This document shows positions 30,001-36,000 of a stretch of 64,000 nt of DNA, one piece after another. The DNA comes from Escherichia coli. GTDB taxonomy: Bacteria; Pseudomonadota; Gammaproteobacteria; Enterobacterales; Enterobacteriaceae. Location: NCBI RefSeq assembly GCF_030013595.1, contig NZ_CP122768.1. One strand, 5' to 3'. Made by a program: the position numbers. Within the stretch, counting starts at the first letter, position 1. Each line of letters begins with the position of its first letter.

Positions 30001-33000
30001 CAGAGAAGTATCAGTCCGTTGTGTGCAATTCCGTTCTGCATGATGAAGAGATTCAGCTGCCTTTTCGCAGACCATTAACCACTATAAACGATCGATGGTA
30101 ACGATCGATACCTGTTTTATCGATCGTTTTATTCTATTAACAGCAAGGCAGTCACGCAAGAGAAAGAGGTGGGTATGAGGGGGGGGGGTCATGTTTTCAG
30201 TTGGTTAACGCAATGTAATCAGGCATTTCCCCTGGCAGAGTGTTCAGAAGAAAATCCAGTTCCATACAGCGCGGGCAACAGAGACCACCGAGTCACGGAC
30301 GGCACGCAGAACCGTGCGTGCAACAGAGGCAACACAGACGCTCTCCGCTGTGTCAAATATCCGGTCCACCGCACCGGTAAACTGTTCACGGGCCTGAGAC
30401 CGGACAGATTCCGTGCGCAGCTCGTCCTGCAGGCGGGTCATCAGGGGACTGGGGCATGGTCGGGAAGCGCTGTCATGAGCGCACTGACCAGCGTATCCAG
30501 TTCCCAGCCGGTGCGGGCCGATACGGCCACAACCGGATGTACGGGCCGGAACAGACGGAATACCGCCTCCGTTTTTTCGCGAATATTCTGTGCCTGTGCG
30601 GGAGAAGGCTGAATACCGGCCATATCCCATTCATGGCAGGGCTCCGTTTTGTCGGCCTGCGTCACCACAAACAGCACCTGCTGATGTCCCCGGTGCAGGA
30701 TGTGTCGCCAGAAATACTCATCCACAGACAGGGCGCGGTCATCGGCTTTAATCAGCCACAGCACCAGGTCCAGTTCGGGCAGAATGTCACGGTACAGGGC
30801 TTCATACTCTGCATCCCTGTCCCGGCTCTCGCCCACCCCGGGCAGGTCAGTGATAACCATGCTGTGACCGTGGCCACTCAGACGGAAGCGCCGCACTTCC
30901 CGGGTGCCGGCGTGAACATCACTGACCGGGGTGACCTCCCCCTGAAACAGCGCATTACAGAGTGAGGATTTACCGGCCCCGCTTTTCCCCATAATGCCAA
31001 TCACGGGTTCGTGACTGGTGAGTTTGCGCAGATGTTCCAGGATGTGACGGGAAAGCGAGTAAGGCAGGGAAGAAAGTGGTTTTTCAATTGCCTCAATGGC
31101 ATCAGACGGATTCATACATGTATTCCCGGTGAAAAAAGACAAAACCCCGCGCACCGGAAAGGTGGCGGGGGATTCACGGAGATAATATCTGTCTGAGATT
31201 ATTTAGAATGTAACAGGTAATGAATTACTTCCTTCGCTTGTGTTCAAGATATTTTTCTGTAATCAGCATTTCAAAAAACTCTCCTGTTCTCAGACCGTAA
31301 ACAGTTCTGAGTTCATCAAGCATTTCTTTCGCATTGCTTCTTATATGTATATTAATAGCCTTTTTACCATCACTCCGATATTTGTCTTTTTGTTTTTTTT
31401 GATGCCAGGCATGATTTATGCGTGTTCTGAACAGTTCAATGGTATCAGGTGCCTCTTTCCATAAAGCAAAGGCGACGAGAGAGGCAAGATAATATTCTTT
31501 CGTTGAAGATGGTATGAACCACCGGGTCACCGGGTTATGTACCGGATGTGTTTCATCCTGTTTTTGTTTCAGTCTTGTCCAGAACCACTGACACATTTCA
31601 TCATCGTCAGGAAGGAGCCACTTAAACTTTTGACAAGCGCTTTTATTTTTAAGCCACGTCTGCCTGAGTTCCTCGAGGTATATGCTTTTTGCATTTTTAT
31701 TAATTAAAGCATGACAGGAATCAAAATATGAAATGATTACTTTTATTCGTTCGTTATGGGATGATGGATTATCCGGAAGGTTACTTTTTTTGTAAGTATT
31801 TAACGTTTCATCGGTAACTGTTCGTCTTTTTCTGACTTCAATTCCGTTTTTTATCCCTGATGAATTATGGTTTATTTCCGGGAAATTTGTATGGTCTTCC
31901 TTCGACAGATAAATAGTAGTCCAGGTAAAGAAAGTCGCAAGTTCGTCAGTTTTCAACCAGAGAAAACTCTCTTCAGGCAGTATTGCCTGCCCTGCAATAA
32001 TTTCAAGTTCATTAATTTCTTTGCTGAGAGCTTCTTCTGCAGTCGAACCAAAAACACCAAAAGAATTGTTTGAAGCTTTATAATACTTTTCTTTTAAAAA
32101 CGAATTAACATTTCTGATACAGTTTTGTGGGTTGTCAGGCGCAAACTGAGGGAATTCATTGGGGTATTTGTGATTCAGATATTCGGCATAAAACCGACAT
32201 TTACGGGGATCTTTGCATTTGATAAGCATCTGTTCGTTATTCATTATCTCACTCCATGGCGCCTCTCTTATAACAAAATCGTCTCAATTTTATTTTGTCA
32301 CTAAGTGATTATCAAATGTTTTTGTTGTGATTTGTTTGTGTTTTTAAATGTTTATGTCATGTTATCAGTGTTTTTATATAAAGATACATTGATGTTTTTA
32401 TGATGGTAAAAAATCATATTTTCTTTTATATTCATTGAGTTATGCTTGTTTGCTCTGCATTTGGGGGATGACAGAAAAGAATGGGCTGTGTTGATCACAT
32501 GCGCCGTATGCGCTGTCCAGGTTACAGGGCACCTCAATATTCAGCGTTTTCCTGTTGACTGGCATTGTTAATATTATGTTTTGGTTTTGTTTTATTGTGT
32601 GGTTGTGAATGTTGTGTTTAGTTTGATGGTTGAGAAAGAAAAAAGAAGACTATGATGCACTAATCAGGAAATATTTTCGACGCCGGTTGAGTTAAAAGAA
32701 CAGATAGAGTGGACAGGTGTTGTGTTAATAGTTTACGGCTGACAGTATTCTTATTTTAATAACAGGTGTTATTATTTATAGATTTATACAGACGATACTC
32801 CCGATAAATAGTCAGGTGATGATGGTCGTTGAGTGGTTTTATAAGCTACGTATAGCTCTGTAAGACTTATTAATTCAACGATGACTACCGTTTATTGATA
32901 TACCTGTATTCGGGAAATGTCATAAAAAATGTCACGTTGTTTGCAGAATCTTTTGTTTTTTAGTTTCTGATACGCAATGACTAAGCAGGAGGACTCACTT

Positions 33001-36000
33001 TGTTTGTATGCTGACCGTGATCGCCAGTGGAGATGAACAATTGACTCTTACATTGAAAAATATACTCTTTTGTATTTTATCGTTTATCCGCATGAAGTAA
33101 ATAATCTTCAGCAATGTTATTTATGTAAATATTATCATCTCACCCTGAGTGTTCATTTTATCAGTGTGATATTCCATTGTTTACTGATGAAATTAACCGA
33201 TAAGTGATCTTGTTAAGATTGCCAGAACGACAGTTTTTGCTGAGTCCGTGCAATGGAAGATGTGTTATATCATCTATTTAAGCAATAAGTTTAATACAGA
33301 TTTCAGAAGATGTGTTGGTGAGTTGATGACTGATTTTCAGAGGGGTATGGGAAAGTGTATGGGATCCCATAAAGAAAAAATCATTATTGTTCAGTTGACG
33401 TATATTTCCGGGTGATGGCTCCAGTCAGCAGAACATGTGTTTTTCGATGAATGACCCAATAACTTTTTCGTGAATTTCCACGGAGCGTGAAAAGCAAATC
33501 GTTTTCCGGTTCAGCCGTTTGATGCGGGAACGGAGTGTCAGATGGAGGTGCTCAATGCACCGGGTAAATATCAATACGATTTGAGGAACCATTTGCTGGT
33601 TGATCTCTTTCCGATAGCATTGGATGCAGAAATAACCACATCCAATGTAAATAAGCATCAATTGCACAGAAGCAATATACCTGCGACCCTCTCCGGAAAT
33701 TCCAGTATCACTGGCTACGTACCGTTTTCAGCAGAACGAAATGCGGCGAGGGTCATTTGGCGGACTGCCACAGATAGCCGTCCGGTTGTGTGCAACGATG
33801 AGGAAGGAATCCCGGGAGCGTTACGTTATGAATCAACAGGCGTATAACAGATACTCGTCAATCATCAGTTCAAGCTCGCGCTTTTCTCGTTTGCGCGCCA
33901 CAGCCCAGCTTTCAAGCTCTGCGTGTGATTTATGCTTTAACTCTTCAGTCCAGGGCTGCATGGAGTGGGCACACATCAGATCATACCAGCACAGCCATAT
34001 CAGCGTGTGGTAGAGATCGCGATCTTCGAAACGCCGGAGCAGACTGTTCAGCCTGTTTGCCAGCCGGCTTTCGCCCAGACGATGTAGCTCACTGAGTAAA
34101 ACGCCGCCCAGATTAAAATGCGTAAGCAGCATGATTTCATGGGTCTGAATGCTGGTCATTAACCCTTCCTGAATGGCAGGAATGAACGGTGGCGTTCCCG
34201 GGTTGACGACCTGATAGAGTCCCTGTGGTGCCACTGAGATGATGGTGCCTTTTTCCGGTAGAAAAAAGTGGGCCAGGGTCAGGCGGTGATAACCATGAAG
34301 ATGCGGAGAGCCCATTCCATGAGCGACAATAAACCGGGTTACACTTGCCATCCATTTCTGATGCTGAATTAGCAGCAGATCACACCGGTTTTCAAGTTTT
34401 TGCATAATATTCTCTCCTTTAGCACGCAGCAGAATGCCTCCGGAGGCCGGATAGTGTATTCGCTGCGGTTGAACGGATAACGGTCAGGAATTACGGACGG
34501 GATTGTGCAATACGCGCCTGCAACCAGGCTTCCACTTCACTTTTCAGCCATCGGGAGCTGCGGCCGAGTTTGATGGGGGCCGGAAAGGCACCATCTTTGA
34601 TGAGCTTATAAAACCACTTATCGGTTAAGCCGGTCAGTTGAGTGATAAACGCCATGTCGACCATCTGGTCATCCATCAGCGAAACTGGGGTCTTCATGAA
34701 AATGTTCCTCCGGATGTTGTTAATCTCAACCGGCGTTGGTGATGAAAACGACGCACCACCTTCACCGGCATAACAACCGGGGAGAAACGTAAAAAAGTTG
34801 AGGAATATTCCTGCCAGGAGAGAAACTGTTGTGTACAGGCAATACAGGTTGTCTGTTTTGTCAGTGAAGCCGGTATAAACGGAAGATGATTTTGTGTTGC
34901 CGGAATATGGGATGGCGTTTTGCCGTGACGGAATCAGTATTTTCAGTGATGATTATTACTGCGCAGGGGAGTATCGGAGATAAACCACGCCCTGTACCTG
35001 CCAGAGCTGTGGTTTGTATTTACTGAAAGGAAGATAAAGCAGAGGTAAACACTGTTGCGGTGAACGGAGAAGACTGAAATTATTCTCCGTAATTACAAAC
35101 AACAGTGATCTGATCCGGTTTTTTTACCGTTACGGGTTTCCGGGGATCAATTTTATAGACCGGGGTAATGACCACGCCGGAATTTATGGAGAAAAGCGGG
35201 ATCCAGCAATAAACGTCCGGATATTTCTGTGTCTCCGGAATACCTTTTGCGCCAGAGGCCATCAGATCTTTAACGCTCACGAAAAATGACTGCCGCAGAT
35301 CAAAAAAGTACTCGTCATATATCACGTCTTTTGCCAGCAGGATGACTGCATTACCAACAGCCGCTTTTACAGGTGTTTCACCGGATGGATTATCGTGATT
35401 GTATATTGTTCTTTCAATATAAATAAAACAGGCATATTTTGCCTTCTCCCCGGACAGTTGCATCTGGTATTCGCAAATGTCTTTGATACGCCGGCTTTCA
35501 ACCCGTCCAATCATCTTATCCCGGCGATAGTGTCTTTTATGTTTCAGCGCGTATAGAACACCATTTGAACTGTCAAACTCCAGGATTCTTTTGGTGAAAA
35601 GTTTGTTTTCCCAGATTTCCAGACAATACTTCTCTGCACTGACGACATTGCGTTTGTGAGGAAGATCCCGTTGATACACTCCATTTAATAAGCGTGACTG
35701 CAGTTTGCCTGCAAGTTGATAATAACAGTTAATATCGTTAAGGACAGGTGCTGTGGCGCTGAGTAATGCGTCGATTACCTTAGAGCGCGAAAGTTTGTGG
35801 GTATGACAGTACTCATCCACAATTCGCAGCGTCTCATCACTGGTCATATTGAAAGTTATACGTGTTGTCATGATGAAGTTTTCTGTTAATCATATTGGTT
35901 GATATGCATAACATTCCATAAAAAACACTGTTAATTCATATAATTAATTTTTTGTGTGTTTTTGTCCTTGAGTGGTGGAAAGCAGGGTTACTGCCACTGT

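What the first reader, a model, noticed from the sequence alone, without database searches (positions are those of the whole stretch)
31225..35871. AT-rich block of orphan genes and a 1.6 kb ORF-poor gap around alpA
Three uncharacterised ORFs lie here: 339 aa (31225-32244), 190 aa (33833-34405) and a 263-aa protein with an RHH-like N-terminus (35080-35871), together with alpA. They are separated by an unusually long region (about 32250-33830) that is strongly AT-rich, GT-repeat-rich and has no convincing ORF. Such regions in islands are often H-NS-silenced and can hide small RNAs, small proteins or novel defence or regulatory genes. I cannot assign function to any of the three proteins from sequence alone.
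Basis: seen in the sequence. Interest (0 to 1): 0.5.

Follow-up and report, generated by a model that had tools for sequence, protein, structure and literature searches.

The report
Regulatory core of an E. coli island
This stretch is the conserved, still uncharacterised control region of a common E. coli genomic island inserted at the pheV tRNA gene: three real genes of unknown function (two of which look like DNA-binding regulators), the excision regulator alpA, and a long AT-rich non-coding spacer that holds a promoter with a conserved palindrome and an old insertion-sequence scar, so it is largely ordinary.

Summary
They belong to the backbone of a pheV-integrated island found in about 240 of 5426 complete E. 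coli genomes. All three "orphans" are under purifying selection (dN/dS 0.09-0.32).

- **339-aa protein:** belongs to a large family (487 clusters at 50% identity). It is all-alpha with a C-terminal ribbon-helix-helix domain (AlphaFold2 pLDDT 91) and has no close solved structure.
- **Position:** in ten loci with enough flanking sequence it lies divergent from an AlpA gene (in nine, a YagK/YfjJ-AlpA pair). In most it heads the GTPase/DUF932/antirestriction/RadC/toxin-antitoxin gene row.
- **Promoter:** a 13-bp palindrome fills the spacer of its best promoter match. The palindrome is kept from E. coli to Yersinia, Rahnella and Edwardsiella.
- **190-aa protein:** a conserved partner downstream of AlpA.
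- **263-aa protein:** a YagM (PF27701) family member with an RHH-like N-terminus.

I found no small proteins, Rfam RNAs, defence-system hits or oriT-like hairpins. H-NS silencing is plausible but untested. Interest is modest.

The parts
31225..32244 (-). Gene for the 339-aa protein: all-alpha, with a C-terminal ribbon-helix-helix (RHH) domain at about residues 293-339. It is the first gene of the co-directional row GTPase, Ag43, DUF932, antirestriction, RadC, CbeA/CbtA.
32287..32315 (-). Predicted sigma-70 promoter of the 339-aa gene: -35 TTGATA (32315-32310), 17-nt spacer, -10 TAAAAT (32292-32287).
   Evidence: Best promoter-like match in the region, 10 of 12. It lies inside the longest invariant runs of the gap across 10 E. 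coli lineages. Only a consensus match; no transcript data.
32297..32309 (.). 13-bp palindrome, ATCACTTAGTGAC on the minus strand (core TCACTNAGTGA), filling the promoter spacer. Candidate operator.
   Evidence: Invariant in all E. coli copies. Kept in Edwardsiella, Rahnella, Yersinia and L021, with a variant in L022, while the rest of the gap cannot be aligned between genera. Exactly one copy per locus. The CACTNAGTG core recurs upstream of a distant family member in L030. Another subfamily (L023, L024, L027) has ACTAC-N3-GTAGT in the same place.
32345..33412 (.). AT-rich non-coding spacer that evolves at about the neutral rate.
   Evidence: GC 0.34. Variable sites 0.254, against 0.228 at third codon positions of the 190-aa gene, in nine lineages. 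No coding signature, no Rfam hit, no excess ssDNA folding (z -1.5 to +1.2), no remnants of backbone proteins. Long AT-rich gaps (565-1683 bp) also precede the homologous gene in eight loci from other taxa and metagenomes.
33413..33572 (-). Remnant of an IS1-family element: the terminal inverted repeat starts at 33413 and is followed by InsB C-terminal codons. An internal 612-bp deletion separates it from the full-length copy in strain PEC240.
   Evidence: PGAP annotation in homologous loci. 83-84% identity to IS1 copies elsewhere. Comparison with L008, where the element is about 770 bp.
33573..33724 (-). Constrained, structure-prone non-coding segment starting 108 nt downstream of the 190-aa gene stop. 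It contains a 12-bp hairpin at 33618-33647. Candidate 3'-UTR or RNA element; function unknown.
   Evidence: Variable sites 0.086, against 0.254 in the gap and 0.228 at third codon positions. RNA fold of 33573-33832 on the minus strand: z -3.55, 0 of 200 shuffles as good. 5 of 6 substitutions in stems keep pairing, but none is compensatory. Found only in this module, in 243 genomes. No Rfam hit.
33833..34405 (-). Gene for the 190-aa protein, a conserved partner downstream of AlpA. No recognisable domain.
   Evidence: dN/dS 0.09. Homologues at 33-38% identity lie downstream of AlpA in Yersinia L019, L021 and L017 (immediately after it in L019 and L021; one small ORF lies between in L017). No hit in Pfam, NCBIfam, PHROGs, PADLOC or PDB.
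34491..34697 (-). alpA: AlpA-family helix-turn-helix protein, an excisionase or regulator.
   Evidence: Pfam Phage_AlpA 36.6 bits (cut-off 21). PHROG 'excisionase and transcriptional regulator'. dN/dS 0.08.
35080..35871 (-). Gene for the 263-aa YagM-family protein (PF27701, 'UCP007319') with an RHH-like N-terminus.
   Evidence: 98% identical homologue P0021 carries PF27701. PGAP name 'YagM family protein'. All 10 family members weakly hit the RHH family aCcr1 at residues 6-33. dN/dS 0.32. In L017 a YagM-family gene takes the place of the 339-aa gene, directly upstream of the GTPase.

Best explanation
The block is the control and maintenance core of a P4-integrase-type genomic island inserted at pheV. 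It corresponds roughly to the part of GI-pheV that the literature calls the 'flu module', which the authors relate to the cryptic prophage CP4-44 of E. coli K-12. Its gene order also resembles my recollection of CP4-57 and CP4-6. All three unassigned ORFs are real genes.

**339-aa protein.** It is an uncharacterised RHH DNA-binding regulator with a large helical N-terminal domain. It heads the long gene row that runs away from the gap: GTPase, Ag43, DUF932, antirestriction, RadC, CbeA/CbtA. I infer that it represses its own promoter, and so the row behind it, by binding as a dimer to the 13-bp palindrome between the -35 and -10 boxes.

**Other genes.** AlpA is the excision regulator. The 190-aa protein is its conserved partner, role unknown. 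The 263-aa YagM-family protein is a second RHH-type regulator.

**The gap.** It is not a hidden gene. It consists of about 1.1 kb of AT-rich, neutrally evolving upstream DNA, a decayed IS1 element, and a short constrained segment behind the 190-aa gene. I infer that the AT-rich DNA serves as a silencing platform for H-NS together with the island's own Hha.

**Shown:** gene reality, family size, fold, conserved position in the gene order, conservation and position of the palindrome, neutrality of the spacer, the IS1 scar.

**Inferred:** who binds the palindrome, repression, operon structure, H-NS/Hha silencing.
For: - **Island context and frequency:** the same module occurs in other E. coli, and the tRNA-Phe gene and integrase are present.
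- **Purifying selection on all genes**.
- **Conserved position in the gene order:** in ten loci from Edwardsiella, Rahnella, Yersinia, Klebsiella plasmids and metagenomes the gene lies divergent from an AlpA gene. In nine of these (all but L031) a YagK/YfjJ-type Rep-like gene lies between, and in most a GTPase, DUF932 or antirestriction row follows.
- **Palindrome:** one copy per locus, inside the best promoter match. It is conserved across genera while the surrounding sequence is not. A second palindrome type sits at the same place in another subfamily.
- **Spacer:** neutral rate, and long and AT-rich in all nine loci compared.
- **hha is encoded in the island**.
- **Published parallel:** in EAEC 042, a DUF3296 (YagK/YfjJ-type) gene, which I take to lie in that strain's related pheV island, responds to the H-NS/Aar circuit (PMC5570504).
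- **Published naming:** the flu and yee modules of GI-pheV (PMC11537424).
Against: - There are no transcript or binding data, and the promoter is only a consensus match.
- The residues of the RHH strand that should face DNA (N-x-H/Y-x-R) are the same in Rahnella (CACTNAGTG site) and in P0044 (ACTAC-N3-GTAGT site). The RHH strand alone therefore does not explain the change of site, and another protein (AlpA, YagM) could be the binder.
- Loci L025, L029 and L031 show no comparable palindrome.
- In E. coli the module is rearranged relative to other genera: the gap abuts an IS1 scar and the 3' end of the 263-alpA-190 row, not YagK. Part of the spacer may therefore be a rearrangement by-product.
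- The local excess of H-NS motif matches is largely what AT-richness alone would give.
Confidence: 0.6

Rival explanations
1. The long gap carries the island's origin of transfer or rolling-circle replication, nicked by the YagK/YfjJ Rep-like protein with the RHH protein as accessory factor. It might also carry a single-strand promoter that fires the antirestriction/RadC/TA row on entry into a new cell, as in plasmid leading regions.
For: - YagK/YfjJ matches the inovirus gpII-type Rep family.
- In other genera it directly borders the gap.
- The genes that read away from the gap are of leading-region type: antirestriction, DUF932, RadC.
- Leading-region anti-defence genes with ssDNA promoters are described in PMC11541004.
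Against: - Neither strand shows excess ssDNA folding across 32000-33400 (z -1.5 to +1.2).
- There are no iterons or strong inverted repeats.
- No k-mer is shared by gaps of different genera apart from the operator.
- The spacer evolves neutrally.
- In E. coli, YagK is separated from the gap by three genes and an IS1 scar.
Confidence: 0.12
2. Beyond the proximal promoter the gap has no function. It is decaying filler left by an IS1-mediated rearrangement that joined two island segments.
For: - Neutral substitution rate and indel variation at 32714-32813.
- The IS1 remnant has no recognisable target duplication.
- The gene order differs from the arrangement seen in other genera.
Against: - Gaps of 0.57-1.7 kb that are 6-17 GC points below their locus precede the homologous gene in eight other loci that have no IS1.
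- The 1.17-kb length is retained in 242 genomes at 86-100% identity.
Confidence: 0.2
3. The three proteins form, or belong to, a new anti-phage defence system.
For: They sit next to defence cargo: a BREX remnant here, and Gabija-like OLD+UvrD or BrxR+GmrSD+type I R-M in relatives.
Against: - They stay constant while the cargo changes, which is how backbone genes behave, not cargo.
- No PADLOC hit.
- The 339-aa family is absent from 50,697 phage records.
- The 339-aa and 263-aa proteins look like DNA-binding regulators.
Confidence: 0.04

Closest known systems
GI-pheV 'flu' and 'yee' modules of E. coli, and the K-12 cryptic prophage CP4-44 (also CP4-57 and CP4-6; Shigella she and SRL islands)
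   Same: P4-type integrase at tRNA-Phe. Ag43, YeeP-like GTPase, IsrC RNA, antirestriction, RadC, CbeA/CbtA, AlpA, YagK/YfjJ and YagM-family genes. [quoted passage not shown] The resemblance to CP4-57, CP4-6 and SRL rests on my recall of their gene order.
   Different: From my recall of the K-12 map, K-12 has no 339-aa family gene, because CP4-44 is truncated at yeeP. None of these genes has an assigned function in that literature. The cargo here is a BREX remnant.
CopG/RepB-RCR_reg-type ribbon-helix-helix repressors that autoregulate through a palindrome overlapping the promoter
   Same: A C-terminal beta-alpha-alpha motif with weak Pfam PF10723/PF01402 matches, and a palindrome inside the promoter spacer of its own gene.
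MatP, the Ter macrodomain protein (helical bundle plus RHH) that binds the 13-bp palindrome matS
   Same: The profile alignment spans nearly all of MatP (helical bundle plus basic linker plus RHH). The target here is also a 13-bp palindrome. The matS consensus GTGACRNYGTCAC is from my own knowledge.
H-NS/Hha xenogeneic silencing of AT-rich horizontally acquired DNA
   Same: GC 0.34 against 0.51, hha encoded in the island, and a long upstream region.
   Different: No binding data for this locus. This is an inference from composition and from EAEC 042 data on a related island backbone gene (PMC5570504).

Membership tests
Ribbon-helix-helix (CopG/Arc/MetJ) DNA-binding proteins (339-aa protein) | Beta-strand, helix, helix motif of about 45 residues | tested here: met
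Ribbon-helix-helix (CopG/Arc/MetJ) DNA-binding proteins (339-aa protein) | Dimer that inserts a two-stranded sheet into the major groove of a palindromic or repeated operator | not testable with these tools
   A conserved palindrome lies in its own promoter, but binding and dimerisation need experiment or complex modelling.
MatP family | Significant sequence or fold match over the helical bundle, RHH and coiled coil | tested here: inconclusive
YagM / PF27701 (UCP007319) (263-aa protein) | Match to the family model | tested here: met
   A 98% identical homologue and all 23 listed relatives carry precomputed PF27701. PGAP names the protein in strain C21 'YagM family protein'. The local Pfam copy lacks this newer model.
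AlpA / Phage_AlpA (PF05930) | Score above the Pfam gathering threshold | tested here: met
   36.6 bits against a cut-off of 21.
IS1 family insertion sequence (33413-33572) | Terminal inverted repeat and InsA/InsB coding sequence | tested here: met
   The IR-like end GGTGATGGCTCC is at 33413. There is 83-84% identity to IS1 copies. A full-length decayed copy with InsA and InsB ORFs occupies the same site in L008. Here it is only a 160-bp remnant.
Known anti-phage defence systems (PADLOC-DB) | Match of any of the three proteins to a defence-protein model | tested here: not met
   No family at E <= 0.1 for the 339-, 190- or 263-aa proteins.
Frpo-type single-strand promoter or oriT hairpin region | Extended, unusually stable ssDNA secondary structure | tested here: not met
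   Sliding 300-nt DNA folds of both strands over 31900-33400 give z -1.5 to +1.2. No strong inverted repeats.
Rfam RNA families | Covariance-model match inside 32245-33832 | tested here: not met
   The only hit in 29500-39500 is IS102/IsrC at 29891-30127, outside the gap.

The most novel reading that the evidence does not exclude
The 339-aa family would be the master switch of a very widespread class of tRNA-inserted islands in Enterobacterales. On this reading these 'cryptic prophages' (they have no phage relatives) are integrative mobilisable elements.

- The novel helical N-terminal domain senses a signal and releases the RHH domain from the promoter palindrome.
- This turns on the antirestriction/RadC/TA 'entry' genes together with AlpA-driven excision and YagK/YfjJ (Rep-like) processing.
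- The AT-rich spacer and the island's own Hha keep the system silent through H-NS.
- The constrained 150-nt element behind the 190-aa gene would be a new regulatory RNA of this circuit.
Probability: 0.12. Interest if true: 0.6.

Novelty: new member of a known kind. Interest (0 to 1): 0.3.

Why it matters
Islands with this backbone carry Ag43, virulence modules and defence systems (BREX, Gabija-like, type I R-M) in E. coli, Klebsiella, Yersinia and other genera. How they are switched on, excised or moved is not known. This analysis identifies a large, structurally new family of RHH regulators at a fixed position, with a conserved palindrome in its own promoter. That gives a concrete and cheap entry point (EMSA, reporter fusions) into the regulation of these islands. 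It also shows that the long 'empty' gap is mostly neutral spacer plus an IS1 scar, and not a hidden gene.

Tried and rejected
- **Domain and structure libraries.** Pfam, NCBIfam, PHROGs, PADLOC and PDB sequence searches of the three proteins gave nothing significant beyond weak RHH signals.
- **First AlphaFold2 model.** The run with 8 sequences was poor (pLDDT 64). It was replaced by a run with a 126-sequence alignment.
- **Fold searches.** Foldseek against PDB and BFVD gave no match at E <= 0.001. The afdb50 library was unavailable.
- **Small ORFs in the gap.** Two stay open in all lineages but vary equally at all codon positions, so I rejected them. The + strand 94-aa 'hypothetical protein' that PGAP annotates over 33542-33847 has the same flaw.
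- **ssDNA promoter or oriT idea.** No structure signal, no iterons, no motif shared across genera.
- **Decayed backbone gene in the gap.** tblastn with YagK, AlpA, Hha, zinc-ribbon and other proteins found nothing.
- **Strong constraint on 33573-33725.** The first estimate (0.039 variable sites) was partly an artefact of the six lineages chosen. With nine lineages it is 0.086, still about 3-fold below neutral. RNAalifold found no compensatory pairs. No counterpart exists in other genera.
- **Collection scans.** The genome-collection scan failed with the deep alignment. With the close alignment it returned a single contig.
- **Literature.** The search for YagM was swamped by unrelated matches.

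
Full report
**Where we are.** The window is E. coli chromosome. A tRNA-Phe gene (52285-52360) and a P4-type integrase (50822-52087) mark one end of an island that reaches back to about 21.9 kb, next to the gsp/yghD genes. The gene order, on the minus strand unless noted, is:
- DUF4942, CbtA/CbeA, RadC-like, antirestriction and DUF932 genes
- Ag43 (27026-29947)
- an IS102/IsrC RNA match (29891-30127)
- a YeeP-like GTPase
- the 339-aa gene
- the gap
- the 190-aa gene, alpA and the 263-aa gene
- on the plus strand: hha, a YagK/YfjJ Rep-like gene and two DUF7828 zinc-ribbon genes
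- a BREX remnant

The literature calls this part of GI-pheV the 'flu' and 'yee' modules and notes their relation to CP4-44 and to a Shigella flexneri pathogenicity island. It assigns no function to the genes studied here (PMC11537424).

**The observation.** All four ORFs are at the stated coordinates. The gap is 1588 bp. GC is 0.375 overall and 0.341 for 32245-33412, against 0.506 for the window. 'GT-repeat-rich' is only strand asymmetry plus one weak 16-nt repeat.

**How common it is.** The whole 5.2-kb block covers at least 80% of the query in 126 of 5426 complete E. coli genomes. The AT-rich stretch is present in 245 genomes at 86-100% identity, never with an annotated gene and always on the chromosome.

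**The genes are real.** Across 8-10 diverged island lineages the ORFs keep their length without internal stops in the copies compared. dN/dS is 0.23 (339-aa), 0.09 (190-aa), 0.32 (263-aa), 0.08 (alpA) and 0.10 (GTPase). A few lineages carry an IS1 insertion or a frameshift in one of them.

**The 339-aa protein.**
- A word-indexed search found only Edwardsiella, Rahnella and Yersinia relatives at 47-59% identity.
- An exhaustive profile search found 487 cluster representatives at E <= 1e-3 and 245 at E <= 1e-10. Most are 290-340 aa and match over their full length.
- With a 126-sequence alignment, AlphaFold2 gives pLDDT 90.9 and pTM 0.85. The fold is all-helical and ends in a strand-helix-helix motif.
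- A MatP-like reading (helical bundle plus RHH) is suggested by a long but statistically weak alignment.
- The family is absent from 50,697 phage records. It occurs in 21 of 72,556 plasmids; in the one examined it is a copy of the same island backbone.

**Conserved architecture.**
- In ten loci with enough flanking sequence (Edwardsiella, Rahnella, Yersinia, a Klebsiella plasmid and metagenomic contigs) the family gene lies divergent from an AlpA gene. In nine of them, all but L031, a YagK/YfjJ-type Rep-like gene lies between.
- In most of these loci the family gene heads a row with GTPase, WYL, DUF932, antirestriction, RadC and CbtA/CbeA genes, while the cargo beyond AlpA changes.
- In eight of these loci the upstream gap measures 565-1683 bp. 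Together with the 1168 bp in E. coli, all nine are 6-17 GC points below their locus. The Klebsiella plasmid copy has about 1.7 kb.
- Two short metagenomic contigs show 295 and 729 bp.
- The E. coli module is rearranged. The gap abuts the IS1 scar and the 3' end of the 263-alpA-190 row, and hha-YagK lies beyond.

**Promoter and palindrome.**
- Between genera the gaps cannot be aligned, except for about 60 bp just upstream of the start codon.
- A 13-bp palindrome lies there, ATCACTTAGTGA(C/T). It occurs exactly once per locus.
- In E. coli it fills the 17-nt spacer of the best promoter match, TTGATA-17-TAAAAT at 32315-32287. This lies within the longest invariant runs of the gap.
- A distant family member (L030) has repeated CACTNAGTG units at the same place. 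Another subfamily (L023, L024, L027) has ACTAC-N3-GTAGT.
- A repressor site inside the promoter of an RHH gene is the classical autoregulation layout. That the 339-aa protein is the binder is an inference. The DNA-facing strand residues do not change with the site, so other parts of the protein, or another protein, may set specificity.

**The rest of the gap.**
- Across nine lineages 25.4% of sites vary in 32345-33412, against 22.8% at third codon positions of the 190-aa gene. This is neutral evolution.
- No ORF has a coding signature and there is no Rfam family.
- There is no excess ssDNA or hairpin structure, no iterons and no remnant of backbone proteins.
- The IS1 element is full length, though decayed, in strain PEC240. 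It carries a 612-bp internal deletion here, so it predates the split of these lineages.
- The composition, six loose H-NS-motif matches in 700 bp and an island-encoded Hha fit H-NS silencing. Published data show that a YagK/YfjJ-type gene of EAEC 042, which has a related pheV island, responds to the H-NS/Aar circuit (PMC5570504). Nothing here tests binding.

**An unexpected detail.** The 152 nt at 33573-33724, between the IS1 junction and the 190-aa gene, vary at only 8.6% of sites. The 260-nt stretch 33573-33832 that contains them folds better than every one of 200 shuffles on the minus strand (z -3.55). The 152-nt segment contains a 12-bp hairpin whose two variants keep pairing only on that strand. 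There are no compensatory changes. The element occurs only in this module and has no counterpart in other genera. It is a candidate RNA or DNA element and no more than that.

**The 190-aa and 263-aa proteins.** The 190-aa protein has no detectable domain, but it has 33-38% identical relatives downstream of AlpA in Yersinia and two metagenomic islands. The 263-aa protein belongs to PF27701/YagM. In one island a YagM-family gene replaces the 339-aa gene directly upstream of the GTPase.

**Verdict.** This is a real, widespread, annotated but functionally unknown island backbone. The most useful new points are:
- the size and fold of the 339-aa RHH family
- its fixed position in the gene order
- the conserved promoter palindrome
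- the finding that the gap is mostly neutral AT-rich spacer plus an IS1 scar

I file it as a new member of a known kind (mobile-element RHH regulators), with interest about 0.3.

Noticed in passing
window 30243-31154 (-): The YeeP/YfjP-like GTPase gene is split into two overlapping ORFs here (30441-31154 and 30244-30630). The alignment to ten intact 873-bp copies shows a 1-base deletion, so it is probably a pseudogene in this strain.
   Followed up: partly
window 29891-30127 (-): Rfam IS102/IsrC sRNA match (68 bits, gathering score 46) between the GTPase gene and the Ag43 gene, as I recall for CP4-44 of K-12.
   Followed up: no
window 39322-47717: The BREX-1 system is only a remnant. brxL and pglZ are intact. 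pglX is cut at its N-terminus by a DDE transposase gene (46749-47717), and brxA, brxB and brxC are missing. An OMP beta-barrel gene and a sulfatase gene follow before the integrase. Strain C21 has the full pglX and brxC.
   Followed up: partly
window 35872-36826: A second long AT-rich intergenic region (about 0.95 kb, GC about 0.39) lies between the divergent 263-aa and hha genes. It varies much more between lineages (81-99% identity, with indels) than the flanking genes.
   Followed up: partly
window 33573-33724 (-): A non-coding segment with about 3-fold fewer variable sites than neutral proxies. It contains a 12-bp hairpin (33618-33647), and the 260-nt stretch around it has a fold z-score of -3.55. 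PGAP annotates a + strand 94-aa hypothetical protein here that shows no coding signature.
   Followed up: yes
window 38246-39057 (+); L014 4518-5344; L027 4762-5585: Paired DUF7828 plus zinc-ribbon genes recur between the AlpA/YagK genes and the variable defence cargo in several islands. Their function is unknown.
   Followed up: no
L028 (JAIJJM010000108.1, 'Collinsella sp.' MAG): A 7.2-kb contig binned as Collinsella encodes a 98% identical copy of the E. coli 339-aa protein. This is almost certainly a mis-binned Enterobacterales contig.
   Followed up: no
L026 (E. coli 042, NC_017626.1 3421706-3441567): EAEC 042 carries a related but different island backbone with two Gp2/YagK-type genes, an H-NS-family gene and a 407-aa hypothetical protein in the slot upstream of the YfjP GTPase. 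That protein shares a weak 48-residue match with the 263-aa protein (E 0.004).
   Followed up: partly
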